Assembly: GCA_012295275.1 (NCBI GenBank)
Contig: CM022676.1
Coordinates: 868,001 to 932,000 of the forward strand
DNA from: Chrysomallon squamiferum
Taxonomy: Eukaryota > Animalia > Mollusca
Direction: 5' to 3'
Length of the DNA: 64,000 nucleotides
Numbering within the stretch: the first letter of the stretch is position 1; every line of letters begins with the position of its first letter. Below the pieces are notes generated by a model. That model made no database searches. It saw nothing but the letters and a program-made list of their open reading frames with translations, and was not told the origin of the DNA. Positions 146 to 62,307 of the stretch are shown here, in pieces. The translations under genes were made by a program, and so were the position numbers.

Positions 146-3100
146 TTGCGTTCATCATCCCCTTCAGGGCAGTCAAGATCACTGTCACATCGCCAGCGCA
201 TTGGAATACAACTACCTTCACTGCATGTCATCTGGTCAGGGGGACACGTGGTGTATGCTACATATCAATTAAGAAATAATGACAACGTTGAAACTGCCAT
301 GGTGAAAACAAGTAATTTCAAATGTACAATAATGAAAAAATTATAAAATGCAAATGACATGAAAAAGTTAGTAAGATTAACTGAAATGTTGTAAGGAGAT
401 CTTATTTTATTTATCAAATCAATTAGTGAGACAAAAATCATAAAATTTGAACATTGACAAAAACAAAGTATCCATAAGTACTATAGAACAAACTAGCCTT
501 GAAAAAGAAAAGTTTTGACAAAAAAGTACTTTACACCTTTCTAATACATGTGTAACTTACGACAATCCATTTCATCACTATGGTCAGGACAGTCATTGTC
601 ACGGTCACACTGCCATGGAAACGGGATGCAGTGAAGGTGGTCAGCACACATAAATTGATCTTCAGAACATTTAGTACCTGAAACATTAAAATTACTCTGT
701 TCTTTACAAGTAACAAAAAAACTAGGATCTTGCAAACAAACTTTTAATTTTGTCTTTCACTTATTTTGTACTACACTGAAACACTTGCTGTTTTGTACAA
801 CTGAAATACTTGCTGTTTTGAACAAGACTGAAATATTTAGTTTTGTACAACATTGAAACACGAGATAGCAACACTTACTTTTAAGTATGAGATACAAACA
901 CTTGTTGTTTTAGTATCAGATTGAAAATTTAAAGTTTTGTACATGATAAAAACATTTACTGTTTTGTACAAGATTGAGACACTTACTGTTTTGAACAAGT
1001 CTGAGACACTTACTGTTTTGAACAAGACTGAGATACTTAGTGTTTTGTACAAGATTGAGACACTTACTATTCTGTACAAGACTGAGACACTTACTGTTCT
1101 GTACAAGATTGAGACATTTACTGTTTTGTACAAGACTGAGACACTGTTCTGTACAAGATTGAGACACTTACTGTTCTGTACAAGATTGAGATACTTACTG
1201 TTTTGTACAAGATTGAGACACTTACTATTCTGTACAAGACTGAGACACTTACTGTTCTGTACAAGACTGAGACACTTACTGTTCTGTACAAGATTGAGAC
1301 ATTTACTGTTTTGTACAAGACTGAGACACTGTTCTGTACAAGATTGAGACACTTACTGTTCTGTACAAGATTGAGATACTTACTGTTTTGTACAAGACTG
1401 AGACACTGTTCTGTACAAGATTGAGACACTTACTGTTCTGTACAAGATTGAGATACTTACTGTTTTGTACAAGAATGCAATTTCCATTTTTATCCATTTT
1501 CTCATTGAAACTGTTACAGCGACACTGTTCATCACCCGATGACAGCTGTACATGCATGGGCACATTGTCAGCACATTTACATGTTCTGTTCGGCCGACCG
1601 TGACCAGACTGTGGAGGTTTGGGTAGACACAGCTGAGTGCAAGGATGGTTGCCACGGCTACATGCACTGCTCACTAAAATGTATTAACATCAATCCAAAT
1701 ACAGTCTAAGATTAATTAATGCTCTGCTAAAGCTGCAGATGGAGAAAGCCACATATATCCATACCATGCTGTTTTGTACGATAGAAACACTTACTGTTTT
1801 GTATAACATAGAAATATTTACTTTTATGTACAAGATAGAAACATTTACTGTTTTGTATGAGATAGAAACACTTACTTTTTTGAATATTTGCAAACAATAT
1901 TCACTTAGTCTACAATTATATAATTAAAACAAAAAATGTGTATATATTTTAACTAATTATGCTGCTGTGATAAGTAAATACTCTGCTGTGATATTTTAAC
2001 TAAGTACACTGCTGTGATATTTTAAATACTCTGCTGTGATATTTTAACTAAGTACACTGCTGTGATATTTTAACTAAGTACACTGCTGTGATATTTTAAC
2101 TAAGTACACTGCTGTGATATTTTAAATACTCTGCTGTGATATTTTAAATACTCTGCTGTGATATTTTAAATACTCTGCTGTGATATTTTAACTGTGTATG
2201 CTGCTGTGATATTTTAACTAAATACTCTGCTGTGATATTTTAACTAAATACTCTGCTGTGATATTTTAAGTACTCTGCTGTGATATTTTAGCTGTGTATG
2301 CTGCTGTGATATTTTAACTAAATACTCTGCTGTGATATTTTAACTGTGTATGCTGCTGTGATATTTTAACTAAGTACACTGCTGTGATATTTTAACTAAG
2401 TACTCTGCTGTGATATTTTAACTGTGTATGCTGCTGTGATATTTTAGCTAATTACCTTGCTGTGATATTTTAACTAATTACCTTGCTGTGCTGTTCTTGA
2501 GACAATCTTCAAATCAGTAACACCAATCTGCTGAGACAGAACTGGATGTATGGCTTCTCCGTTGCTTTTGTCTGCCATCATTACAGCATTCTTACCAGAG
2601 TCAGTCCAGTAAATAAAGGACTGAAAAGAAAAATGTTATCTCAGTAGTTATATAGTGCATGATTGAAAAAATAAAAAACACAAACAAATTCTTTACATAT
2701 TTAGATGGAATATCAGATTTGATAAACAAATGAAATGAAACAAAATTCATATTTTTTGTACAAACAAATTTAAATGAAAAGAATATTAAGAATACTGTTG
2801 AATTGACAAGAAAAAAAAAAAAAAAACAGTATGAATATTATATGAGTAAAATTTGTACAATTATAAAGAGATGTGGCTGACAGGCATGTGTTTATATTAA
2901 TTGTAATTCTGACAATTACTCTCAAAAGTGTGACTTAATTGTTCTGATGTATCATTTCTGAAAAATTATTTAAATAAAGGTGATTTCATTAGTTGCTTAT
3001 TGGTAAAGATAAAACTTTTTTTTCCAGTTTGATATGTTTAACAAAATGCTGTCACTTCAAACAGACACTGACATCAACTGAGTTGATGTTCTACTATGCT

Positions 3101-19231: not shown

Positions 19232-21807
19232 ATGACAATGGAGAACAGACAAGAATACACCAGCAACCAAAGTGTTAATATTTCCTATGAGACTGCTATG
19301 ACAACATATTATCAGGTTAGTGCTGATCAGCAGCATGGTCCTGTAACTCTTCATGTGGGTGATACTTCACTTCCCATAGTCAGTGATCTGCATGGAGAAC
19401 GACCTGATGTGTTGGCACTGGCAACAGCCACCCTGCTGCAGGGATCTTACTCTGACACACCAGCTTACATGCCAGTTCAGAATCTTGTTCTAAGTCAGGG
19501 TTCACAGTTCTCACAGTTAGGACAACTGATGGAAACCTCATTAACACAACAATCTAGTCAACAGGACAACATTGTTCAAGGCCAGGAGGGAATTATTCGC
19601 ACTCTGACAGCACATGAAGAACTAACAGAGGATCATACAACAGGAAATTCAGGACAGTCGTCTCATGACAACAGAATTTCCTGTCAGTCCCAGGTCTTAG
19701 ACAGTTCGGTACTTCACGTGCAGACAAGTGATGACCTGCATATTCCAACATCTAGCTCCTTCATACAGCTATCCACAATACAACAGGTTGAGCCTGGAAT
19801 AGTATTTGGAAGCCAACAGACCAACACCTCATTAACAGACAGCAGTGTAATGTTGGTAAAACCAACTTATCCATTAGATTCCATGGTTGTTTACTTGGAC
19901 TCATCCACAACATGTCATGAAACAGATACTCATTACAACCAGACACCAACATTTGTTGAAAAGAAAAAACGAGCTGCACGGTCAAAACCACCTGCCAAGA
20001 AGAAAGAATCACAGGCTAATGCTATTGACCTTAAGCCAAAACAAATCCCTACTCTGCCACCTGATGGCATTATTTCTCCTGAGGATCTGAAAGGTATGGA
20101 GATGACATCAAACACAATCATTGCTCTAATGAAAAAGAAATTTAACAAAAAAGGTTTGAAAATCAATGAATGCCCTTACTGCAAGAAAGGTCTTTCATCA
20201 CGTGAGGCACTCAGAACACATCTCAGAACCCACACAGGTAATCTTACCTTTTTCTCTTATACATACTAAGCCAGACCATTTGTCCAGCAAGCTTGGAACT
20301 GTAGATGATCAGGATTTTAAATTTCTGATTTTCAGGACTAAGACTTATAAGACTAAGATATATACTAACATAAATTATAAAATAGAATGAAAAATATAAG
20401 CTGGAAACTGGATAAATGGTCTGATACCTGTATTTTACAACAGGTTGTGTATGTGTGATATAATTTTTATTGCTAAATTTTATTTAATTATCCTAAGTTT
20501 CACACTTGTTTTTCATTTCTGTTGAATTAAATATGTATATACATTATGACAAAAATTATTACAGAATATAGTTTATTTCTGACTAGCATAACTATGTGCA
20601 AATAATACCAAAAATACACTTGCATCACTAGTAATTAAAATACTGAGTTTGAAATACATCAGAAACAATATAGGTAATTAAGAATAAAATAATACAAATT
20701 ATTGTCATTATTGTTTTTATTTCAAAGATTGTGGTAGATTATATAAAGTTAGCTTATTCATTTTAAACAAACATTTCTCTGATGAATATAATTGATTAAA
20801 AACAAAAAAAAGCAAATTACAATTTACTAATAAGAATTGTGTTGCCAAATTTCCTAGGAGAGAGACCATATCAGTGTGAAGACTGTGGAAAAAGTTTCAG
20901 TGACTGCAGTGTTTTTCGACGTCATCAACGCATCCACACTGGAGAAAAACCTTATGTCTGCGATGTCTGTGGCAGAGCTTTCAACCAGTCAACTTCACTA
21001 GAGGCTCACAAAAGGACCCACACAGGAACAAAGAAATATACCTGTGAAGTATGTGGTTTAGGATTTGATAAACTTCAAATGTTATTAGATCATTGCAGAT
21101 CAGAAAAACATGGAAACATAAGGATGTACAAATGTACAAAGTGCTGTGTGGAAGTCCAAGATGAGGCGGCCTTAAAGAGACACATGTGTTCCCATACTGG
21201 AGAACGAGCATATGCTTGTCATATCTGTGGTGCCAAATGGGAAAAGCACTATGGATTGATGGAACATTTACGCATGCATGCTGGAATTAAGCCTTACAGC
21301 TGTCCTGAATGTGAGGAGAAGTTTGTGAGAAAAGGAGATCTTCGCATTCACATGAGTCGACATGTAACAGCAAAGTTCACACCACATAAATGCCCTATTT
21401 GTGGGGAAGGATTCAAGCAGAAAGCCCAGTTGATGGTACATAAACGTATTCACACAGGAATCAAGCCATATGATTGTAAAGGTTGTGGCAAATGTTTCTA
21501 CTCGTGGAAGGATCTTCGAGAACACAGAAGAAAACATTCTGGTAAGCGCATTTATAAATGTGATTGTTGTAACAGGACTTTTGCAGCTTTGAATACTCTG
21601 AAGGTGCATATAAAGATGCATATGAAGAATGGACCTTTAAGCTGCAGTATTTGTTTACAGATCTTTAGCAACACAAATGACTTCATTAGCCATACTAGAT
21701 TTGATCACAGTGTTAAAACAGAAAACTCAAACAATTCCGAATCATCTGATACAGATAACTGTGAACTGCCAATAAAAAAAAAACAACAATGGTTAAAGAG
21801 AAAATGA
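19232..21807 (+). CDS. C2H2 zinc-finger protein, N-terminal part (11 fingers; exons 19232-20237 and 20858-21807; 651 aa as assembled)
   Basis: A phase-1 intron (20238-20857) splits a TG|ERPY linker. Repeated CxxC...HxxxH fingers with TGEKPY-type linkers; Q/S-rich N-terminus. Confidence 0.9.
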
Positions 21808-24800
21808 AAACAAAAAATTCTTATCAGCTGGAAAAGAAATGCAGTTCAGCCAGTGAAGAGTCATCTGATGATTCAAGAAGTGAGCCAGATGATGAATTTT
21901 CATCATCAGAACAGTCAGGTAGTGATTTGGACAAAGACTGTTTATCACCTGTCTTTCAGGATGAAACCAATGATAGTAGTCATCAGTGTTCTGAGCAACC
22001 CACTGAGAACAAAGTGAAAACAAGGGATATTTCCAAAGAAGCAAATAATGAAGACAATAACAAACATCTTAACAAAGATTCAGTTATTCAAAGTGTATGT
22101 TTATTGTCAAACACTGATGCTGGGTCAGCTACACAGAATGACATTCATGTTAATTATGCTCGGAACTTAACAGGTATAGAAACTCTAGTTAGAGCAAGTG
22201 TGTTGTCTGATGCAACCTCCACTGCTACCACTTTACAAACAGAAGTTTCCTTGTCAAAACCAAACTGTACTGATTCATCAATCAGCTTATCACTTCTGGA
22301 AACTGAATGCACTCAGACAGAGTCTGCTGTTGATAAACATCATGTTTATTCTGACAGATCAGCACAGCTAACTCTGCTTGGTGCATATGCCACCTCTGAA
22401 CAGTGTGCATCAGTATCCTGCAGTTCAAATGCTGACATCAAACATGAATATAAGAAGATGGATGCCAATCAAAATTCTGATTATGTTCAGGGTTCTAAAG
22501 GATTTCAGCTTAACAGCAATGACATTACTATTAACCCAGAGCTTGACAGTGTTCAGCATTCATCAGACACTAATAACTGTAGCACATTGGAGAAACAAGT
22601 AAGAATTGAAGCTCACGTACAACACATTTTTGCAAATAATCAGCAGACAGTAGAATTAAGTATAAAACAACCAATTAATGGTCAGCAGTTTGCATCAACA
22701 AATCATGAAAACAAGAAATCTTTATCTGCAGACAACAAAGAAGTTCCTGCTGAGGCAAATTCTGACGCTCCACATTTAAGTGAAAAAAATATTCATGATT
22801 GTCATTCAGAAAATTTAAATAGTGGCAATGTTTTGACAGTTCCAGAATATAGTGAAACATTAGAAAATGATAGCCAACAACAATTCTGTAATGAAATTAA
22901 GACCATGTATTATGAAGCATCAAATACTGAAGAAAATAACTCAGGAGAAACTCATATATTAAGCCTTGGAAGAGTATCATCTACCCCAGAACAGAGCAGA
23001 TTAAAAGCAAACAGCGAGTCACAAGCTGTTACTGTTTCTGAACAATTAGTCAACTGCCAGGATGTTGGATTTTTACCGTTTGGAAAGTATTTGACAGCGC
23101 CTTCTTCAAACAGTTCTCATGGATTAGAAACTATATATTCATCTGTATCACCTATTAAAGATTATGCCAATAATTTATCATTGTATGGATTACAATTTAC
23201 TCAAGGATTTGCTCAATCATCATCAGCTGCATTCATAACAGATAGTGCTACACACGAATCAAAGTTTTCTTTAGATGGAGGTTATAATAATATAGGATAC
23301 AATCAGCTTAATAATGCTTCAGAATTTACAAATCAACATCCAGGACAGTCAGATAATTCAAGAACAGTTCCTACCAGCATTGACTACTCTATAAATCTTC
23401 AGACTTTAATTAACACATCACTTGCTCAAGAAGAAGCCAAAGTGGTCAAAGATGCATCACAAGAAAGACATTTAGAGAAAAGATATTCTAAAAAATTCTG
23501 TAAAAATTTAGAATGTCAGTATTGTGGAAAAGGCTTATCTTCTATTCCAGCTCTGAAAAACCATGAAATGATTCATACTGGAGAAAGACCATACAAATGT
23601 GAATGTGGAAAAAGTTTCATTGACTCAAGCACATTCAAAAGACATCAGCGCATTCATACTGGAATCAAGCCGTACATGTGTGATGTGTGTGGGAAACAGT
23701 TTAATCAGTCCAATTCATACCGGACCCACATGACTTGTCACACAGGTGAGAAACATTACAAATGCAATGTCTGTGGACACAGCTACGACAAGCTCAAGAA
23801 ACTTATGGAACACAATCAACGTGAAAATCATGGTGACTTGAAACAACAGACATGCAGTGTATGCAGTGCAGTGTTCCGCGATGTTTCATCTCTTAACCGA
23901 CACATGTGCAGTCATACAGGTGAGAAAGCATTTAAGTGTGAATACTGTAACAAAACATATGAGAAACAATATCAGTTTACTGAGCACCTGCACTCTCATG
24001 CAGGATTCAAACCTTTTAAGTGTAATATTTGTGGAGATTCATTTCTTCGGAAAGGACAGCTGAAATTTCATGAATATAAGCATCAGTATGGAAGGCAGTT
24101 TGAATGTGATATGTGTCATCAAGCTTTTTATCGGTCAACAGATCTCACTGTTCACAAACGCATCCACACTGGCGAGAAGCCGTTTAAATGTGATCTGTGT
24201 GATAAACCCTTTCGTCAGAAATGGGAATGTAAAAATCACATGTTATGGGATCACTCAAATAAAAAACCATTTACTTGTGAGAAATGTTGCAAGTCATTCA
24301 GAAAAGCTTATAGTTTAAAAGTACACATGCAAAATAAACATGAGAATGATAAAAAGCACAGGTGTTTTGTTTGTAAAAAACGATTCCGCAAACTGGAAAA
24401 TTTGAAGAAACATAGCAAGAAACATCGAAGCTTAAACTGCCGGCTGTGTGGGAAAATGTTTCTCACAGAAAAGAAAACTCAACAGCATTTGCAGAAATTC
24501 CATAAGGATGACAAAAAAGTAATGAAGATAACAAAACGAAAAGAAAAACAAAAGCTTGAATGCATGGACTGTGGAAAGAAATTTTGTTTCAAGTATGATT
24601 TAGAGGAACATCAAAGACTACACACAGGTGAAAGTATTTATAAGTGCACAATATGCAGTAAGATATTTTCCAGAGAATATCATTTAAATATTCACACAAT
24701 GAAACATACTGGTGAGAAACGATTCAAATGTGATGAGTGTGGGGAGCCATTTGCTTCTGGGAAGAATTTAAAAATGCATCGTATTGAGCAGCATGGTGCT

Positions 24801-26981
24801 AGTGATGCTGATATCTTTAAATGTGAGATTTGTCAGCATGAGTTTGCTGATAGGAATACCATGAAGAAACACATGAAATCTCACAGCAAGGAAAAGCCAT
24901 ATGAATGTAAAATATGTGGAAGACATTATCAGTATTCATGGAATTTAAAGATACACGAGAAATCCACTCATACAGGGGATATGCCATTTAAATGTAAGTT
25001 TTGTCAGAAAAAGTTCTCACACAGACGTGACTACAGACACCATGTTAAATCTCATACTGATGACCTCCCTTTCAAATGCAGTGAGCCTAAGTGTGGTAGA
25101 AGTTTTGCTAGCCAGAGAGCACTGCGAATGCATGAACCAGCTCATTCTAGTAAATTCATTAGACATGTTGTACCTTCTTCTCAAGCAGGATTCAGCATTC
25201 CAAATGTGCTGGAGATAGATAGTATTAACAAAACACAGCAAAATACTGTTGCAGCAGAGTCACTATTACAAAATGATTGTAAATTAGTTTATTTAGTAAA
25301 TAACAAAGACAGTGCTCAAAACAACAAAATGGAGACTGCAGATATGAATCTGAGTTGTATTCAGAATGAAACACATATTGCAGTCAGTGATAAATCTGAT
25401 GGAAAACAAACAGGGTGTGTTCCATTGATCCAAACTACCAATTTTCATCATGGTCATCACTTAGCCTGTTCTGGAAGCAGTTGCCTTTCGACTGATGATA
25501 TGGAAAACACCATTGAAAATGATCTTACCAAATCTGTTACAGAGTCGGATAAAAGTTTAGGAACAGAAACATGTCATAATCAGGCCTCGCAGTCTGTCAT
25601 TACTACCAGTTTTTCAGAGATAGGATTTGCATGTGGAAAAGAGAATAAAACCATAACAGATTATCAAGTATCTACTGAATCATCATGTCTTTCTTCTGTG
25701 TTTTTGGAAGGAAATCCTATTAACTATGCTGATGCTTTTCATAATCACAGCAACAGTTTGACATCACAAGCAATTAAGGATCAAATTCTTTTCTCAGACA
25801 AAACCTATGGCTTACCAACATCTGTGACATACTCAGCAGTGTCAGTGCCTTATTACGATCCACAATCAGTCTATCCCCAAAGTGACGACAGTCACTGGAA
25901 CAGACTGTCAGAACTTCAGTCAGTTTACACTTCACTGTACAATGTAACAGATCCTGCTAACATCAGAAGATGTCATACAGGATCTGAAGAACATGAACAT
26001 CAAACAGTGCCTGATTATAGACTTAAGACAGCTGCTCTAGAAATTGATTCTGATCAGAGAGAAAAGGGCATCACTGCAGATAATTCTGTAGATGATTCTA
26101 GAGCTTCATTAAAGTTACAACAAGGTTTTGAGAAATACAGATACTTGATCAATGAGCAGAAATCATGTTTGTCTTCAGAGAACAAACCATCAGTGGTTAG
26201 TTCTGTATCTGAGAATCACATCAGTATACAAACACAATCTGCATGTTCTCATAGCAAGCATACAGCTTGTTCTCTCTGTCAGACGTCAGACATAACCACA
26301 GTCTGTACATCACAGAATGCTTCCTTAATTTCATCAACAAAAAATGAAACATATACATTTCAAAATAACATTATATTTGATAGAACTATTGAAAATTCGA
26401 CATCACTGAAAAAAAGTAAATTTGTCCAAGAACACCGTTTAGATTCTCCAAGCCAAGCCACTAATCACACACCATCAGAGATAAGTGGTTATTTATCCAG
26501 GGAGGAATGTTCAGCAGAGACAGACAGAAATTTGCAAGAACTGTTGCCTGTTGATCAAAATAATCTTCACCACCACCAGGACGAAAATTTTAATCTACAG
26601 GAATCAGCTACTTACATCCTTCATTCTGGCATTCAAGACAGTCATTTCCAAAGCCAACGTGAAAATATTGACATCCACAATAATATTTCTGAAAATTCTG
26701 CACAGATGAATTTAAATGTTACTAAATACAAAGATCTGGATGAAATAAGTTCAGGGAAACCAGCATTGTCTGCTGGTGGGGAAATCCACTTAAACATGCC
26801 TAGTATTGATAGAACAGTTACAAAAGTATCAGATACCAACTATTATTGTTACAACTGGTCAAGAGCAGCTATAACTGCATCCAGTTATTCATTGATTGAT
26901 AAAGATAATACTGAACAAAATGCAGATACCATTCACCTGCAGACCGTCACTGACAGTGAAAAAAATGGCAACAGCACATAG
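21789..26981 (+). CDS. C2H2 zinc-finger protein, C-terminal part (about 19 fingers), probably the same gene as 19232-21807 in the -1 frame
   Basis: 1730-aa intronless ORF with fingers from ~23510 to ~25145. It overlaps the upstream ORF by 19 nt next to an A10 run (21774-21783). The fused product would be ~2376 aa with ~30 fingers. Confidence 0.85.
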   Translation: MVKEKMKTKNSYQLEKKCSSASEESSDDSRSEPDDEFSSSEQSGSDLDKDCLSPVFQDETNDSSHQCSEQPTENKVKTRDISKEANNEDNNKHLNKDSVIQSVCLLSNTDAGSATQNDIHVNYARNLTGIETLVRASVLSDATSTATTLQTEVSLSKPNCTDSSISLSLLETECTQTESAVDKHHVYSDRSAQLTLLGAYATSEQCASVSCSSNADIKHEYKKMDANQNSDYVQGSKGFQLNSNDITINPELDSVQHSSDTNNCSTLEKQVRIEAHVQHIFANNQQTVELSIKQPINGQQFASTNHENKKSLSADNKEVPAEANSDAPHLSEKNIHDCHSENLNSGNVLTVPEYSETLENDSQQQFCNEIKTMYYEASNTEENNSGETHILSLGRVSSTPEQSRLKANSESQAVTVSEQLVNCQDVGFLPFGKYLTAPSSNSSHGLETIYSSVSPIKDYANNLSLYGLQFTQGFAQSSSAAFITDSATHESKFSLDGGYNNIGYNQLNNASEFTNQHPGQSDNSRTVPTSIDYSINLQTLINTSLAQEEAKVVKDASQERHLEKRYSKKFCKNLECQYCGKGLSSIPALKNHEMIHTGERPYKCECGKSFIDSSTFKRHQRIHTGIKPYMCDVCGKQFNQSNSYRTHMTCHTGEKHYKCNVCGHSYDKLKKLMEHNQRENHGDLKQQTCSVCSAVFRDVSSLNRHMCSHTGEKAFKCEYCNKTYEKQYQFTEHLHSHAGFKPFKCNICGDSFLRKGQLKFHEYKHQYGRQFECDMCHQAFYRSTDLTVHKRIHTGEKPFKCDLCDKPFRQKWECKNHMLWDHSNKKPFTCEKCCKSFRKAYSLKVHMQNKHENDKKHRCFVCKKRFRKLENLKKHSKKHRSLNCRLCGKMFLTEKKTQQHLQKFHKDDKKVMKITKRKEKQKLECMDCGKKFCFKYDLEEHQRLHTGESIYKCTICSKIFSREYHLNIHTMKHTGEKRFKCDECGEPFASGKNLKMHRIEQHGASDADIFKCEICQHEFADRNTMKKHMKSHSKEKPYECKICGRHYQYSWNLKIHEKSTHTGDMPFKCKFCQKKFSHRRDYRHHVKSHTDDLPFKCSEPKCGRSFASQRALRMHEPAHSSKFIRHVVPSSQAGFSIPNVLEIDSINKTQQNTVAAESLLQNDCKLVYLVNNKDSAQNNKMETADMNLSCIQNETHIAVSDKSDGKQTGCVPLIQTTNFHHGHHLACSGSSCLSTDDMENTIENDLTKSVTESDKSLGTETCHNQASQSVITTSFSEIGFACGKENKTITDYQVSTESSCLSSVFLEGNPINYADAFHNHSNSLTSQAIKDQILFSDKTYGLPTSVTYSAVSVPYYDPQSVYPQSDDSHWNRLSELQSVYTSLYNVTDPANIRRCHTGSEEHEHQTVPDYRLKTAALEIDSDQREKGITADNSVDDSRASLKLQQGFEKYRYLINEQKSCLSSENKPSVVSSVSENHISIQTQSACSHSKHTACSLCQTSDITTVCTSQNASLISSTKNETYTFQNNIIFDRTIENSTSLKKSKFVQEHRLDSPSQATNHTPSEISGYLSREECSAETDRNLQELLPVDQNNLHHHQDENFNLQESATYILHSGIQDSHFQSQRENIDIHNNISENSAQMNLNVTKYKDLDEISSGKPALSAGGEIHLNMPSIDRTVTKVSDTNYYCYNWSRAAITASSYSLIDKDNTEQNADTIHLQTVTDSEKNGNST

Positions 26982-34585: not shown

Positions 34586-37500
34586 TTAGGACGCCACCTC
34601 CTTCTCGTTTGTATGTAGTAGAGGGCGACCACTTTCTTGCAGCATATTTCCACGTCTAAAAGATGTTTCCAGTTCCAACATGGCGGCAGGTAATTCTTCT
34701 TCCGGTGTGTTCCACACGGCATTGTCTTCAAAGAGGTTTTCTCCGAAAGGTCGGCCGAGCCCAGGCAAATATTTGAGTATTAGACCTGATATAAATTAGT
34801 ATTAAATAATACTAAAATGTTTAAAGACGTGTGTGTATGTGCTCTTATATTTTATATATATATATCTGATTGTCTGTGCGTGTGTGTGTTAACCGAAATC
34901 ATTTGCAAATGAAACGTTCTTAAGATCTGTCACATAATAGAAAATCCAGTGGAAACAAATTAATAAAAAACAAATACTCAAAATAGAAATTCATTTAAAT
35001 TTATTATTTAAAAATAAGATTTTCTTTTTATTTAAATAAGCATGAACTGGCATATATTAATATCATTAGTTTTTAATTGTGAGTCAATAATTACCAGTGA
35101 CAGCTCCACCTACGATAGCAACAGCTAACGTGACTGCCAGGGCCACCATTTGATATCCGGCCTGTACCAGCGCCGACCGACCTAGACTTGGTTCTACGTT
35201 CACGTGTGACAAAATGTCTTCCAGTTCCGTCGAGTTTGGTGGCGGCGCCCTAGCTGGAAACTGTTCGTACAGGCTGAAACAAAAGTAAAGTGCAAACATA
35301 TCGACATAATACTGAAATGATTATTGCGTATATTTGGAAAGCCATAAAAACCTTCTGCAGAATTTTCCTCTTCTTATTTATTTATTTATTTACGTGGGGT
35401 TTTGGATGTTTTTTGTTTTTGTTTTTTTGTGTGGGGGGGGGTGTTCGTATTTTTATTACATCTTTTAGTTACTCTTTATTTTACGGTTTTATAACCAGCC
35501 AAAAGAAATTTAAAATTTATCTTTCCTATCTCAGTTAAGTATTGTAAATCAGTCTCATGAATTTCTTTTAATAAATAATATAAAATTATAAATTTTCTAA
35601 GTGAAATTCGAACCAAACGGCTTAAATTTTACGATTTTTGCTTTAACGTACAAGAGACATATTTAATACTAGCCTTGTTTAGCTGTTTTTAATTATCTGA
35701 TCTAAATTAATTTTATATTTAATGTGTTTAGGTGTACGTGTGTTTAATGGTTGACCGAGTATCCACCCCCAAACAAGACAATGTATCTGTTACAGCATGA
35801 GAAGAAAAATTAAATTAAATTAAAACAAGAGTTTTAACATTAACGCGTACAGAGAATAATTTCTTTCATTAAATAATTTTAAACAATATAATATAAATTT
35901 ATTATGAATAACAATTATTTAGATATTAACAGAAACTACTATGAAACTGAAACAGATACTGAATTTAAAACATCCAAATAATTTATTTTCCTATTTTAAA
36001 AATTTAAAATCAAGTTCGTTATAACAAACAAAAAACTTTTTAATTATATTTTATTAATTTATTTATTTGTTTATTGATTTGTTTGTTTGTTCAAAAAACG
36101 CATTTTTAAAATACTAAAAGGTTATTAAATACTCACCTGTATCCATACTGTTCGGTGGTGGCCAAGGCTGCAGCTACTGCACCAGCAATTCCTGCCATAA
36201 TGGCCGGCATACCGTGCAGATTGTTAACTCCGCATGTGTCGTGAATTTTGAGTTTTTCATTCATCCAGGGCTGCAAAAGAAATTCTGTACATAAGAGAGA
36301 AATGAATATTTTTTTGATATATAATAGATATGCAGTTAATAGATATCTTTCCGAAAACCAACGTCTTTGCGCTATTGGTATGCTGTAAGCAGGAATCGCG
36401 CAAAATGAAGTTGATGTACACTGAAACACGAAAAAAACTTTATGGGATTTTAACAAAACAGGGCAGAATTGATGACTTGTCAAGGGCGGGCCGTCTGCGA
36501 GTGACGTCGCACCAATTAGATATCCATATTTGGATGCCTCATTTCCAAACTGCCAGTTTAGCAGCTCGAACCATTCCTGGGTTAATATTAGTGCCAGGAC
36601 GTATGGAATCGGTTATGGGAACACAACATCCGGCGCCGACGACAAGCCACATGCCCACTTTTATTTCTACATCATCGGCACTCTCGTTTAACATAGCGTC
36701 AACAACATGTAAGGTCGAGCGACAAGACTGGGACAGTCTACTGTTCACAGGTGAGTTAAGGTTTCACCTCTGATGGACACGCAATGGTCTGCAGAGCAAC
36801 GTTTAGACGAGGTTTGCGTTATTCAACGTCAGCCATTTGGAGGCGGAAGTGGGAAAAATGTGGGATCGTAACACAAAGAGGGACGGACCCAGGTATACGC
36901 TACCGAGATAACAACATTCGATCTCAAGTCCCACCATTAGCTCAAGCGCAGTATTACAGCATCACAACGCGCGCCCACATACCAAACGTGCTGTAAGAGA
37001 CATCGTAAGACAACAGAACACTGATGTTCTTCCCTGGCCGCCAGTTTCTCCAGACCAGTTGAACATGTCTCGGATGAAATGGAACGACGTTTACGTGTTA
37101 TCAGAATTAGCAGGGAACGCTTGCCCAGCTGGAACAAGCTTTGATTGAGATTTGGAACTCCAGTCCAGCATCTCTTTTTCAACTGTCTAGTTTTGTCTAT
37201 GCGGCGTCGTTGTCAGGCCTGTGTCAAAGCTGATGATACTCACTTTATGATACTCATTTATGATACTCATTTATGATACTCACTTTATGATACTCACTCT
37301 GTGAATAACGTTTTGTTCCACCGTTATTTTGGGCTGTGGCTTAGTTAAAACGTGATGATTGTGAATTTCAATAAATAAACATTTAAGCATTTAGACTGTT
37401 TGGTTCGAATTTCACTTAACAGAAAATTTATAATTTTATATTTCTTGTTAAAAGAAATTTATGAGACTGATTTACAATACTTAACTGAGATAGGAAAGAT

Positions 37501-55902: not shown

Positions 55903-58236
55903 ATGGATGTACTGATAGTTCGTTTTACCTTCATCGCGCTGTTATCCCTCATTCCTTCATGCACAGCCAAATGGGTGGAAGGGTACCTGGACACGGATAA
56001 GGTACGTCAGACATTCTTCGATAAACATAAAATCGATTTATTTGTTGCATCATTACACACAGATAAATCATACTTTATAGCAGAAGAGCAGAAATTAAAA
56101 CAGTTTTAATATGTTGGAATGTCTATACTTAGAAAAAACAAAACAAACAACAGCAAAAAAAAAAAAAAGAAAAGAAAAACGATATTGACATATTAATCTA
56201 ATATTATAATTAAACTATAAATTAATACTATTTACCAGTTTTATATTAGCATATAAATACATTGCCTTAATATAGAGATAATTTTCCTGTTATAGGTATA
56301 TATATTTTAATATTCACATTTACTACTACTACTAGTGTAACTTTTAAATCTTATCTTATAGGTATTTTCTAGTGTTTCAAAAACTTGGTATGTTATACAG
56401 AAGTAAATAACAAAACAACATATCATTTGTAATGTAAATGTTAATCCATTTATGTTTCACAGAACTTGAATATTTTGTTATTTTAATAGTCGCAGTTATT
56501 AATAATTTATTGTTAATTTAATAAATTAAAAAAAAATAAAAAAAAAAAATTAAAGAAGGATAATGTAACCATGGTATTAAATAATGCGGTTATAATTGCA
56601 ATAATTATTTGAAATGTCACATTTAGGTTTTAATACTAGAATATGTACAGTGTTTCATACTTTCTATGCTGAGACATCAAAATAATTTAAGTTGAAAATA
56701 AAAATAGGCAGCACTCTGAAATGTTTGTAAATGAACCTATTTTGGTTTGTGTGTGAGTGTGTGGAATCATTCTGTAAAATATAAAGTCTAAAGAAGGCAA
56801 TGGACAATGTTTTATTTCACAATATATATTCTGAATTTACATCTTACACAAATGGACCATTGCATGGTTTCACTGTAGTTATACCTTGACACACCTTTCC
56901 TTTAAGTTATTATAATGTTTTTAGTTGATTTGCAAACTCTTTATACTAACCACATGAGCAGTAATTTGTGCATGTAGACATTTTTTAATAATGAACTCTT
57001 GAAATATGCTTGTTGTAATGTATACTCATGCCTTTATCATCCAAAAATAATAACTGATTTTTTTCATAACTAAACTCATTCTCATATTTTTGCCCTATCA
57101 CTATTTCATTACAAGCTAATTTGGTTAGTTCTTAATTAAACAAAAATAATAACCATATTTTAAATATTTTATAACTAAATAGTTAAATATTATTTATGGT
57201 GACAATAACATTTCATATACAAATATTATTTAAATAGTAACAGTATTACCTTAATAAAATGTATAAATATTTGAAAATAAAATAACAAAATAAATCTAAA
57301 AAAAATAAATTTAAATCAAAAGTTAAATGATAGGACATTTGATTAAAATAACAAAATAAAAATTTACTAATTGTGGTTATTTATATTATTTTATTTTAAA
57401 AATAGCAGTTGTTTCAGAATTATAGTAATAAAGATATTTCTTAATTTGAACACATAATTGCCTGAAATTGTTTATAAGCAAGCAACTAAAAGTTGTGTTA
57501 GTAATAATTTTTATTTTATACACACACACTTAAAAATAAATATATGTGTGTGTGTGTGTGTGTGTGTTAATATTGCAGTGATATATTATTTCTTTTTTTT
57601 TTTAAATTTTTAATGGAAGAGTTTCTCCTAGTCAAAAATTTAGGATCTAAATTTCATATTGATCATAAGAATAATACCAAAAAAAACAAACATTTGTTGC
57701 CAAAAAAATATTATTCAGTGTTTTTTGGTTTTGTTTCTGTCACTTTCAGAACTAATCCAAAAATAAATCTGATCTTTTTCATTCATTCAATAATTTAGAA
57801 TTAATGTGTAAAGTCCCATAATAGCCCATTGTTAATACCTGCATATTTTTCATAAAGATATGATTATTTCTTCCAAACAAATTGTTAAATCAGGTTATTA
57901 TTATCATTTAATTTAATATTCTTTTATTTATTTTGTTTACGATTCTTAATATATTCCATTATGTACTTTCATATTAAAAAATTATCTGACATAAAATCAA
58001 TTAATGTTTCAGAAACCTTATAAGAGAATCTATTTGCACTTCGTGAAGTATATTCTCCAGTGTGAAAACTATTAGTCACAAAATTTACATACATTTGTTT
58101 TTCATATCAACACCTGTAATGTTCACTTTGAATTTACATACTGTTTTCTGAGGAAAAGCTAGTCTACTGTTCACTTTACACTTGAATTTACTCTTTAATT
58201 TAACTTGTTTTATAATATATTTAAAGCTCAGTTGTT

Positions 58237-58707: not shown

Positions 58708-60636
58708 CAGATATCTGGAAATCTTTTGTAGCAATTGATTATTTGGTATTCTTACTAAAATTTTCAGTTGTTGCAATCATTTGTTATAATTGATGATAAT
58801 AGAAATATTATAAAATACTGAGCATAAAATTTCTTTGTAGTCATTAAAAAATTCAGATGTTTACAAACTTCCTTACAGGAATTTATTATTTATTTCAGGA
58901 TTGGCAGTTTCTAGGGAGATTTTGCTTTTTGTCTGAACAAGGGACGCTGGAATACAATTTTATTTATCCAGTTGTAAGTCTATGCTTAGAAATATTAGTT
59001 AACAATACTTAGCAAGTCACAGTAAATAATTTAATTTAAAGAAAAATAATTTTTAAACTCTTCTCTAGGGTAAAGTCAGATTATAAAAATATTGTTTAGT
59101 TTGATGTTTTACATGAATTAGAAATTATTGTTCTGAATTCTGAGAAATACTTTTTTCTTTTCTTTTTTTTTTGTCCTAATTTGTTTATAAAAATATGAAC
59201 ATACATTTTGACTAATATATTTTATTTTTAATGAAACATTTAGGTTTTTTTGGACTACACTGCTAATTAATCATACACCGATACATGCCTATTTGAAAGT
59301 AAATCTTATTAAAATAAGTACACCAATTCTAAAAAAAAATAATATAAAAAAATAACTTTGTTTCAGTTCAGACAAAAGTTTTGTTTATTGTTGCTGTCAT
59401 GGTTTTCTTCCTTCATGACTTTATTTCTGTTTGTTCAATGTTTTTTTGTCTATTGTTTGTTCGTGATCAGCAAAGAATTGATCTATTTATGGTAACTCGT
59501 CATATTGCTTGATAAATCAGCATGCATGGTGGGGTTCTCAAACATTCATGTCAGGCATGACTGATTTCTGATAACACTATAAGACTGTGTATTATTATTA
59601 GGTTCAATATCTAAATCAGTTTTATAAGTAAAATACAGAAATCAAAATATTGTGTATATATATATGTCATTGCCTTATTTATTGTTTAATATGTTTTAAT
59701 CTTTACATGAAATAATACCTGAAATTTAGTTATTTATTTTATACATATAATGAGGAGGGGATGTGTCTTGTGAGACCATAATGTTGGTATAAATGATAAT
59801 ACATATGTAACCCACTACATACTCACTACAAAAACTCACTAAGGAATAAACAATCAAGAGGGGATTTCAATAAAGGGCTTTAATAGTATGTAATCCCTGC
59901 TACAACATGGTAACTCTGGCACAGTTTAGCAGGCTGATTCAGTCTGAACAGACTAGTACAAGGAAAGCGTTATCACTGGTTGACTTTCATTCAGTATTGT
60001 AATAAGCAATCACAGTGTATGAAGTAATAACACTACACTGTATTCAAAATGTAGATAACAAATAATCAATAAATCAGACATTACATATACCTGAACATTT
60101 GTAGATTGTAAATGTTCCCAGTAACAAGTACACATCCACCTATGTATGTATAGTTACACTGTTGAGTCTCCATAAACATGTATGTTCTTTTATGTGATTC
60201 CTGGAAGCTGTGTTTGTGTTTTGTATGTATATAGTGAAAACTAAACACTGGTTTTGTTTGTATGTAGGTCAACCAGCTATAGAAACATATATTATTTATA
60301 GTTCAGTTTGTGAAAGAAATCAATCGCACATTAAAAGTATATAGCAGTGAATTATTAAATTTCTGCATGGGAATTAAATTAATACATTTATTTCGTTTTA
60401 AGCAAAGTAATTAAAAAAATGAATCAAGAAATGTTCTGTATTTCATGGGACAGGGTTATTAAACATTTTATTGATAATAACTATTTAAAACTTTATTTCA
60501 GGCGTACAGTACAGAAGACATATTGTTATATTATGATACTGACAGCCAGTGGCCTTCTGTTTATCCATCCAGCAAGGTAAATACCAGAATATAACAACTG
60601 TTATAGAGTCTTCTACCTTTTAATTTCTAATTACTT

Positions 60637-60693
<57 letters not shown>

Positions 60694-62307
60694 AGAGCAA
60701 TCATAATTCTAATATTTCAGTTTTGTTCATTATAAAATTGTTGACTAATACTGACATTTATAAAAATAAAGAGAATTCAACAACAGAATTCCTTACCGCT
60801 CACAGAGATTAACATGTTATGGGTTGATGACTTTCTTTAACAGTATCCCAGTAACACAGCTATAAACAACATTATTATCTGCAAGTTAAAATATCATTAT
60901 TTGTTAAGTGCCAGATCTGTGTAGCCAATTAGGAAATCTAACTCCAGAAAAGGGGAAATAATCAATTTTTACTGTCACTCATCAAAACATTTTCATGGAC
61001 AAACTGTGTGCAATAATATTTAAATTCTATTTTTAACTTTAAAATAATTTGTCACAAACTGACAATAACAGATATGTTGCAAAAACTGTTATTTGAATTT
61101 GTATTTGTTAGTATTTGTAAGCAGATGAAATTGAATATACCTCTAATTGACATTTCTCCTTAACACCATTTCACAAATAGTAATGTTAGCATTGAAAAGA
61201 AACTGACATCTGAGGTTTACTGTTGATATGTTTTTTATTTTTATTTTTTGTCTTGATATTTAAGAGAACTGTCACATAATAATCTTTGGTTTGTTGTTGT
61301 TTATATTATGTGTTTTTGTGTGGGTTTTTTTGTTTTCTTTTTAAGAATTGAGGATTTAAACTTGCTCTGATCACAGTAAATGTAAAATACAACTAATTTG
61401 TAAAACTAGGGGAAGCAGTATAAGTAATATAAACAGGTTAATGATACAAAACAGTAGTTCTGCATTCTACTTCATTCTGGGGGTTTATATCCTCATTTTT
61501 TATACAATTTTAATTAATACCAGTGACAAAATATATCAACAAAAGAATTCAGAAAAAATAAATATCTAGCTGAGGCCATTTTTCTACTACCTTCATCAGT
61601 TCACCTTGTCCTCAGTGATTCCTAATTTCAGACTTTGATATGAACTCTTTAGAGATGTTTATTGTGGTGTTATAATTTATTACTGAAATGATAGTCTGCT
61701 CAAATAAAAATGCATGAATAAAATTTTTTTTTTTTTTTTACCATTTATTTGTCCATAACTTCACTTTAAATATTAAATATTTGTTATGTTTAATTGTTGT
61801 CATTATTTTCAGAGTTGTGGAGAAAAGTTTTCAGTTTTGAGTATAGATAATAATCAAGTAATATCACTTAACACAAGTTACACAAGAACATCTTCCTTCT
61901 CTGGATGTAAAATAAGTGTTTACAATGGTGAATCAGTTTATAACTGTACTCAGAGTCGCCGGTTCTCGTCTCGCAGGGAGCGATGGTGGTACATTGCAGT
62001 CTCCAGATGTCATCAGCCATCTGAGAAGGTTTGTTATTACAATTTACAAAATATATCAATTTAATTTTTTCTTTTACAGTCTTGTGAAGAAAAATTTGCC
62101 GTTCTTAATGTTGAAAACTATCAAGTGATCTCACTAAATGACAGTAGGGCTTACATTTCATCTGCATATTCTGGCTGTTTTAAATTTAATAAGACAACAA
62201 GTGATGCGAAGGGAGAACAGTACTGGAACTGCACTGGTAGTAGAACATTTAGGTCAATGCGAGAACGCTGGTGGTTCATTGCTACTTCCCGATGTTACCC
62301 ACAAACG
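55903..62307 (+). CDS. TMEM145: TMEM145/GPR180-family membrane protein, 5' exons (gene continues beyond the right edge)
   Basis: Exons 55903-56001 (signal peptide then AKWVEGYLDTDK), 58899-58973 (DWQFLGRFCFLSEQGTLEY), 60502-60576 (LLYYDTDSQWPSVYPSSK), then alternative exons 61813-62028 and 62080-62307 (..SRRERWWYIAVSRC / SMRERWWFIATSRC). The W-FL-RFCFLS and RERWW-IA-S-C motifs are characteristic of TMEM145. Confidence 0.85.
60640..60688. repeat. (TG)n microsatellite
   Basis: Seen directly in the sequence. Confidence 0.95.
61813..62028 (+). CDS. TMEM145: TMEM145 exon 4A (72 codons, phase 0-0)
   Basis: Acceptor ttttcag|agt and donor aag|gtttgt; SCGEKFSVL...RERWWYIAVSRCHQPSEK. Confidence 0.8.
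62080..62307 (+). CDS. TMEM145: TMEM145 exon 4B (76 codons, phase 0-0), paralog of exon 4A
   Basis: Acceptor cttttacag|tct and donor acg|gtattc; SCEEKFAVL...RERWWFIATSRCYPQT. Confidence 0.8.

What the first reader, a model, noticed from the sequence alone, without database searches (positions are those of the whole stretch)
61813..62307. Tandem duplicated TMEM145 exons 51 nt apart: candidate sterically enforced mutually exclusive splicing
Seen: two adjacent open exons, 4A (61813-62028, 216 nt) and 4B (62080-62307, 228 nt). Both are phase 0-0 with their own AG/GT sites. They encode the same stretch of the luminal domain: SC.EKF.VL...N.QVISLN...SGC...NCT.SR.F.S.RERWW.IA.SRC. All four cysteines are conserved, roughly half the residues are identical by eye, and the loop and N-glycosylation sequons differ (A: NTS, NCT; B: NDS, NKT, NCT). 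The intron between them is only 51 nt and has an in-frame stop; the shortest other intron I mapped in the window is 84 nt. Established: a donor-to-branch-point distance that is too short blocks joining of adjacent exons, as in the alpha-tropomyosin mutually exclusive exons. Inference: this is an old, conserved exon switch that produces two TMEM145 ectodomains. I am not aware of such a switch in vertebrate TMEM145.
Basis: partly seen in the sequence, partly recalled or inferred. Interest (0 to 1): 0.78.

Follow-up and report, generated by a model that had tools for sequence, protein, structure and literature searches.

The report
Snail TMEM145 swaps its cargo-binding exon
A snail gene for the membrane protein TMEM145 holds two old copies of one exon and its RNA uses one copy or the other, so the gene makes two versions of the outer domain that binds partner proteins in the mammalian counterpart, and the very short gap between the copies likely stops them from being joined together.

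Summary
Confirmed. Exons 4A (61813-62028) and 4B (62080-62307) encode the same half of the TMEM145 GOLD domain (40/70 residues identical), 51 nt apart. RNA contigs show exon3-4B-exon5 (exon3-4B joint in 4 of 4 runs) and exon3-4A-exon5 (1 of 4). No 4A-4B joint was seen, but only one run expressed 4A. Gigantopelta aegis RefSeq isoforms X1 and X2 are exactly the B and A forms, and a third, unnamed snail has the pair. A and B form separate clades (A-A 73-86%, B-B 72-79%, A-B 53-59% identical). A is ancestral-like; B added a 5-residue hairpin insert with a conserved glycosylation sequon. Double inclusion would stay in frame, so decay cannot police it. Any branch point lies at most 36 nt from the donor, so a steric block is the likeliest enforcer, though untested. 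Gene models of two clams and an annelid also carry 2-3 tandem copies of this exon. This is a new member of a known class (tandem-duplicated mutually exclusive exons), already auto-annotated in a relative. I found it neither in print nor in this scan's earlier findings.

The parts
55903..56001 (+). TMEM145 exon 1, coding part (signal peptide and start of the GOLD domain)
   Evidence: ORF and GT donor; RNA joint 56001>58899 in 4 of 4 runs
58899..58973 (+). TMEM145 exon 2 (75 nt)
   Evidence: RNA joints; 20/25 identical to Gigantopelta
60502..60576 (+). TMEM145 exon 3 (75 nt), the common upstream donor for 4A and 4B
   Evidence: PF21892 positions 36-59; joints to 61813 and to 62080
61813..62028 (+). 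Exon 4A: ancestral-type second half of the GOLD domain, 72 aa, four Cys, two sequons
   Evidence: RNA contig exon3-4A-exon5 in run X3; 54/71 identical to Gigantopelta isoform X2
62029..62079 (+). 51-nt spacer intron between the alternative exons; usable branch-point candidates at positions 18 and 36; in-frame stop
   Evidence: sequence; no RNA joint across it in 4 runs
62080..62307 (+). Exon 4B: derived copy, 76 aa, 5-residue hairpin insert with a third sequon (NKT)
   Evidence: exon3-4B joint in 4 of 4 runs; followed by exon 5 in 3 of 3 RNA runs re-laid; 57/76 identical to Gigantopelta isoform X1

Best explanation
This snail TMEM145 gene carries two tandem copies of exon 4, its transcripts join exon 3 and exon 5 through either copy A or copy B, and the 51-nt spacer likely blocks joining A to B because the donor and branch point are too close for the spliceosome to assemble. 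Shown: both exon3-A-exon5 and exon3-B-exon5 paths exist in RNA contigs, and both copies are conserved in three related snails. Predicted (AlphaFold): each copy completes the same GOLD beta-sandwich, supplying one short helix, four strands and all four invariant cysteines. Inferred: steric exclusion is the enforcer, since double inclusion would be in frame and escape decay. Also inferred: B is the major form in the sampled material and A a minor or tissue-restricted form, and the two GOLD surfaces (B has a longer, extra-glycosylated hairpin) differ in which secreted partners they bind or carry.
For: RNA: joint 60576>62080 in 4 of 4 runs, 60576>61813 in 1 of 4, 62028>62080 in 0 of 4. In X3 both 62028 and 62307 are followed by the same 29 loose letters, which I read by hand as the start of Gigantopelta exon 5. 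Gigantopelta XP_041373915.1 (X1) and XP_041373916.1 (X2) share an 86-aa prefix and a 408-aa suffix and differ only by B versus A. Unnamed ENA proteins P0003/P0005 read A, spacer, B in tandem. Trees: A clade 96/86, B clade 100/99. A versus B in the window: dN 0.39, dS 1.71 (LWL85); 9 of 14 four-fold sites differ. 216+228 is a multiple of 3. Usable branch-point candidates sit 18 or 36 nt from the donor, against a ~50-nt steric threshold in mammals (PMC5740500, PMC7969005 passages). Molluscan short-intron modes are 97-105 nt in 4 of 5 species and 269 in Lottia, versus 59 in Drosophila (PMC6157073 supplement rows). Models of both isoforms have pLDDT 84-96 across the exon and match TMEM87A best. 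The GOLD domain of TMEM145 is needed to bind stereocilin (PMC12789471 passages).
Against: All four RNA runs come from one study and are assembled contigs, which drop rare forms. Only X3 expressed A, so the missing A-B joint rests on one run. The A contig has only 28-30 letters on each flank, below the tool's 31-letter bridging mark. The steric threshold comes from vertebrates; no snail minimum intron size was measured, and C. elegans splices ~40-nt introns (PMC4165533 passages). The second snail's spacer is ~90 nt, a normal size, so there exclusion must rest on branch-point position, which I could not see (no DNA; one search found nothing). Orthologous dN/dS could not be computed. No evidence bears on different partners for A and B.
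Confidence: 0.7

Rival explanations
1. The exons are mutually exclusive, but the choice is enforced mainly by splicing factors or RNA pairing; the short spacer is incidental, or a secondary lock in this species only.
For: The spacer is ~90 nt in a relative. Both donors are weak matches to the U1 consensus (A 6 of 9, B 4 of 9). Human clusters use the steric route in only 57 of 629 cases (PMC5740500). Something must still choose between A and B.
Against: At 51 nt no branch point can lie much beyond 36 nt from the donor. In the relative, the last 14 spacer codons are mostly Phe (a U tract), which would leave the last certain adenosine at about nt 47-48 (inferred from protein only). A search for complementary 11-mers gave 4 hits in 3.4 kb, only one touching an exon, with no chance control.
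Confidence: 0.2
2. B is the working exon, and A is a decaying or barely used copy that is spliced in as noise.
For: A appears in 1 of 4 runs and B in 4 of 4. A and B are less conserved to Gigantopelta (76%, 75%) than exons 2 and 3 (80%, 92%).
Against: A is as conserved as B across three species (73-86% versus 72-79%), keeps all four Cys and both sequons, matches the gastropod consensus at 5 of 6 fixed A/B differences and has its own RefSeq isoform. In X3 its contig depth (3.8) is of the same order as B's (2.3-8.65), although contig depth is a poor measure.
Confidence: 0.06
3. A and B are two cassette exons that can also be included together, giving a tandem GOLD half-repeat, as some automatic gene models of clams and an annelid imply.
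For: A+B stays in frame. Gene models of Paralvinella, Mactra and Mya string 2-3 copies together.
Against: No A-B joint in 4 runs. Each copy alone completes the domain (PF21892 1-131 in both isoforms). Those three entries are automatic predictions whose RNA support I did not see, and the Paralvinella model lacks the N-terminal exons.
Confidence: 0.04

Closest known systems
Sterically enforced mutually exclusive exons: alpha-tropomyosin (Smith and Nadal-Ginard 1989; seen only as a reference entry; details recalled), OGDH 4a/4b (PMC7969005 passages), C. elegans let-2 exons 9/10 and egl-15 5A/5B (PMC4165533 passages)
   Same: Tandem homologous exons, used either/or, with a donor-to-branch-point distance under about 50 nt. 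In the worm cases the spacer is simply too short and the exon lengths are multiples of three, as here.
   Different: A different gene and phylum. OGDH uses a distant branch point in a longer intron, whereas here the whole intron is 51 nt (the ~90-nt spacer of the relative may be of the OGDH type). The branch point is not mapped here.
Tandem exon duplication-derived substitutions in general (PMC9741552, PMC5740500; passages and supplements)
   Same: One homologous region of a protein is swapped while the fold is kept; enriched in membrane proteins; often arises convergently in the same gene.
   Different: TMEM145 and GPR180 have 0 hits in the main text and held supplements searched. The nearest entry is a human TMEM87B candidate pair with hydrophobic peptides, apparently not a GOLD-domain swap (not mapped here).
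Gigantopelta aegis TMEM145-like RefSeq isoforms X1/X2 (XP_041373915.1, XP_041373916.1)
   Same: The orthologous A/B switch: the same exon lengths (72 and 76 aa) and the same sequons.
   Different: An automatic annotation only. I found no paper on it.
FGFR1-3 IIIb/IIIc exons (recalled, not tested)
   Same: Alternative duplicated exons encode the second half of an extracellular beta-sandwich that binds partners.
   Different: FGFR ligand switching is proven and is controlled by splicing factors over a long intron. Here, different partners are only a hypothesis.
Mammalian TMEM145 and the GOST family (PMC12789471, PMC11605061, PMC12716839 passages; TMEM87A and Wntless structures)
   Same: GOLD domain plus seven transmembrane helices; the GOLD domain binds secreted cargo (stereocilin).
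   Different: No exon switch was found in the papers searched. The 115 vertebrate-type proteins among the 120 listed each carry one copy, which cannot exclude unannotated alternatives.

Membership tests
Mutually exclusive tandem-duplicated exons | Adjacent homologous exons of like length and the same phase, each with its own splice sites | tested here: met
Mutually exclusive tandem-duplicated exons | Each exon is joined separately to the same upstream and downstream exons | tested here: met
   (A in 1 of 4 runs, B in 4 of 4); Gigantopelta X1/X2
Mutually exclusive tandem-duplicated exons | No joint inclusion and no double skipping | tested here: inconclusive
   None seen, but contigs drop rare forms and only one run had A
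Mutually exclusive tandem-duplicated exons | Both exons are kept by selection | tested here: met
   A-A 73-86% and B-B 72-79% identity, separate clades, A-vs-B dN/dS about 0.23; orthologous dN/dS not computable
Steric (donor-branch point) class | Donor-to-branch-point distance under about 50 nt | tested here: met
   51-nt intron with candidates at 18 and 36; predicted from motif, not mapped
Steric (donor-branch point) class | Lengthening the distance releases joint inclusion | not testable with these tools
   needs a minigene
NMD-policed class | Joint inclusion shifts the frame or adds a stop | tested here: not met
   216+228 is divisible by 3 and both exons are open
U2/U12 incompatibility class | A U12-type splice site on one side of the pair | tested here: not met
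   Donors GTAAAT, GTTTGT and GTATTC do not fit the recalled U12 motif; both exons use the same upstream donor and downstream acceptor
TMEM145 / GOST proteins | N-terminal GOLD domain (PF21892) followed by the 7TM domain (PF10192) | tested here: met
   PF21892 on window exons 3, 4A, 4B; both domains on the orthologous full-length isoforms; fold match to TMEM87A. The 7TM exons lie outside the window.

The most novel reading that the evidence does not exclude
Exon 4 of TMEM145 is a repeatedly duplicated cargo-specificity cassette across Lophotrochozoa. Neomphaline snails (2 copies), clams (Mya 2, Mactra 3) and an alvinellid worm (3) each built arrays of the same GOLD-domain exon, at least partly independently, and splice one in to change which secreted proteins this chaperone or anchor binds, like FGFR IIIb/IIIc. 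It would be the first splicing switch of partner choice in a GOST protein and a natural tool for mapping the GOLD binding surface.
Probability: 0.3. Interest if true: 0.62.

Novelty: new member of a known kind. Interest (0 to 1): 0.42.

Why it matters
GOST proteins are poorly understood, and TMEM145's GOLD domain was only recently shown to bind a secreted partner (PMC12789471). Two natural, selected versions of half that domain on an otherwise identical protein point to the surface that sets partner choice, and allow a clean A-versus-B pull-down. The copies in clams and an annelid suggest this exon is a repeated target of duplication. The 51-nt versus ~90-nt spacers allow a comparative test of the steric rule in molluscs. 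The splicing mechanism itself is textbook.

Tried and rejected
No whole genome is held, so downstream exons and a genome-wide intron length distribution were not available. A scan of metagenome contigs for DNA of the second snail found 609 pattern matches and 0 confirmed. Run X5 (kind not on record) laid only one piece, 60450-60627, and did not cover the exons. Lack of cover of 4A in X1, X2 and X4 proves nothing about absence. Haliotis X1/X2 differ by 4 aa like A/B, but this is a 4-residue insert after the exon, not an exon swap. Most 'two-stretch' hits were arthropod-like proteins with a long loop insert, not duplications. The PDB sequence search gave 0 hits. NG86 was saturated and YN00 failed; only LWL85 gave a dS. 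RNA pairing search: 4 complementary 11-mers, no control, not taken as support. AU tests: B grouped with Paralvinella copy 1 was rejected (p 0.03; the grouping was chosen after I saw the identity table), and B grouped with Mactra copy 1 was not rejected (p 0.235), so independent origin is not proven for the bivalve copies. Rows left out of the trees: P0023 (aberrant model), Mactra's partial middle copy and, the long-branch rows Mya_2 and u69_2. Earlier scan findings: nothing by sequence or place; the word search returned only exon pairs in other genes, which were not used. No complex prediction was run, as no snail partner is known.

Full report
Observation. They share 40 of 70 aligned residues and hit the same part of Pfam PF21892, TMEM145_N (E 2e-19 and 3e-17). 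There is no third copy in the window. Exons 1-3 lie at 55903-56001, 58899-58973 and 60502-60576; exon 5 is beyond the window. The 84-nt comparison intron is real, but I did not map all introns.

RNA. Five public runs hold the stretch, four of them RNA from one study, all kept as assembled contigs. Laid on the gene, the joint exon3>4B appears in 4 of 4 RNA runs, exon3>4A in 1 of 4 (X3), and 4A>4B in 0 of 4. Re-laying X3, X1, X2 and X5 on a shorter stretch showed that in X3 the contig through 4A and the contig ending 4B carry the same 29 loose letters; X1 and X2 carry the same loose end after 4B, X2 with one letter changed. Read by hand, these letters give the start of exon 5 as in Gigantopelta. 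No loose end sits behind exon 3 in those three RNA runs, so skipping of both exons was not seen. This is the assembly bubble expected from either/or splicing. Limits: one study; contigs hide rare forms; only X3 could have shown an A-B joint; and the A contig's flanks (28-30 letters) are under the tool's 31-letter bridging mark, although it matches all of 4A with no differing letter.

Conservation. The nearest named relative is Gigantopelta aegis, a peltospirid (Neomphalina) snail. Its RefSeq isoforms X1 (568 aa) and X2 (564 aa) are identical except for a B-type versus an A-type exon. Unnamed ENA proteins P0003/P0005 read through the tail of A, 30 spacer codons and B in a third organism. Identities are A-A 73-86%, B-B 72-79% and A-B 53-59%, against 80% and 92% for exons 2 and 3. 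In a tree of 32 exon peptides (66 columns) A and B each form a starred clade (96/86, 100/99), and together a clade at 87/81 (86/76; open in the quick tree). The duplication therefore predates these three species and probably happened in their lineage. A is ancestral-like: it has the 66-residue span of other gastropods and matches their consensus at 5 of 6 fixed A/B differences, B at 0 of 6. B has a longer branch, a 5-residue insert and a third sequon kept in 3 of 3 species. Between A and B in the window dN is 0.39 and dS 1.71 (LWL85), consistent with an old duplication under constraint.

Protein consequence. AlphaFold models of the two Gigantopelta isoforms (43-sequence alignments that held both isoforms, so confidence is not independent) give mean pLDDT 78, and 84-96 across the exon. 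The exon covers residues 85-156 of a domain spanning 26-164: a short helix, four strands and all four cysteines that are invariant in the alignment. B's insert lengthens the hairpin between two strands, and its extra sequon lies on that hairpin. Both models match TMEM87A best (E 1e-8, 3e-9), then Wntless. The GOLD domain of TMEM145 is required for binding stereocilin (PMC12789471, passages). That A and B bind different partners is inference.

What keeps them apart. Joint inclusion would be in frame, so decay cannot remove it, and the splice sites give no sign of a U2/U12 mismatch (U12 motif recalled). The spacer's usable branch-point motifs are at positions 18 and 36, under the ~50-nt threshold used for mammals (PMC5740500 and PMC7969005, passages). 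Short-intron modes in five molluscs are 97, 99, 101, 105 and 269 nt, near human (89) and far above Drosophila (59) (PMC6157073 supplement rows; the column header was seen for another section of the same table). A 51-nt intron is thus likely unspliceable here. Against a simple reading, the second snail's spacer is about 90 nt. Its last 14 codons are mostly Phe, so its branch point may still lie within about 48 nt of the donor, but this is inferred from protein alone. A steric block explains why both are not included; it does not explain how A or B is chosen.

Wider picture. A profile search listed the best 120 of 471 hits. Three of the 120 carry repeats of this exon: Paralvinella palmiformis (annelid, 3 copies), Mactra antiquata (3, one partial) and Mya arenaria (2). 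An unnamed contig protein, P0069, shows two more. These are automatic models that string the copies together; whether they are mutually exclusive is untested. Their copies do not group with snail A or B in the trees, but support is weak and only one of two AU tests rejected a shared origin. Single-copy proteins in other species do not exclude hidden copies, since an annotated isoform shows one exon at a time.

Print and novelty. Searches for TMEM145 with 'mutually exclusive' (3 unrelated papers by listing), TMEM145 alone (25 of 91 listed), mollusc exon duplication, Gigantopelta with alternative splicing, GOLD/GPR180 isoforms and 'transmembrane protein 145' with exon showed no description of this switch. 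TMEM145 is absent from the main texts and held supplements of two human catalogues; large supplement files may have been cut. PMC11605061, PMC12716839 and PMC4165533 were seen as passages. The scan's earlier findings hold nothing on this sequence.

Verdict. A real, transcribed, conserved mutually exclusive exon pair in the GOLD domain of TMEM145 in Gigantopelta-like snails (about 0.93 for either/or use; about 0.7 with steric enforcement included). It is a new member of a well-known class and is already present as automatic isoforms in a relative. The added interest comes from the swapped region being the partner-binding domain and from the same exon being multiplied in clams and an annelid. 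Interest 0.42.

Noticed in passing
proteins P0018/P0038 (Mercenaria) and P0020/P0039 (Ruditapes); not in the window: RefSeq isoforms X1/X2 of TMEM145 in two venerid clams swap an equal-length homologous segment of 33-35 aa in the last transmembrane helices, and the two types match across the genera: apparently a second, separate exon switch in the same gene.
   Followed up: partly
proteins P0027/P0042 (Ptychodera flava); not in the window: Isoforms X1/X2 swap a homologous segment of about 24 aa right after exon 4, possibly a third alternative-exon site in TMEM145.
   Followed up: no
proteins P0174, P0009, P0175, P0069; not in the window: Two to three tandem copies of the exon-4 peptide in gene models of Paralvinella, Mactra and Mya and in an unnamed contig.
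   Followed up: partly
beyond window 62307 (exon 5, RNA loose end): Run X2 differs from X1 and X3 by one letter in the second codon of exon 5, which would change a residue; an allele or an assembly error.
   Followed up: no
window 36760-37145: Remnant of a DDE transposase (weak Pfam DDE_3 hit, E 0.007, below cutoff) within the span of the Rh-type ammonium transporter gene.
   Followed up: partly
window 21765-26978 (+): A single stop-free stretch of 1738 codons encoding a many-finger C2H2 zinc-finger protein.
   Followed up: no
window 840-1920: A degenerate short tandem repeat (recurring 9-codon unit in translation) inside the SORL1-like gene, open in several frames (gene name from recalled motifs).
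   Followed up: no
arthropod-like proteins P0103, P0118, P0128, P0140, P0156: The same hairpin region that B lengthens by 5 residues carries very long Thr/Ser-rich inserts in these TMEM145 proteins, suggesting a tolerant, exposed loop.
   Followed up: no
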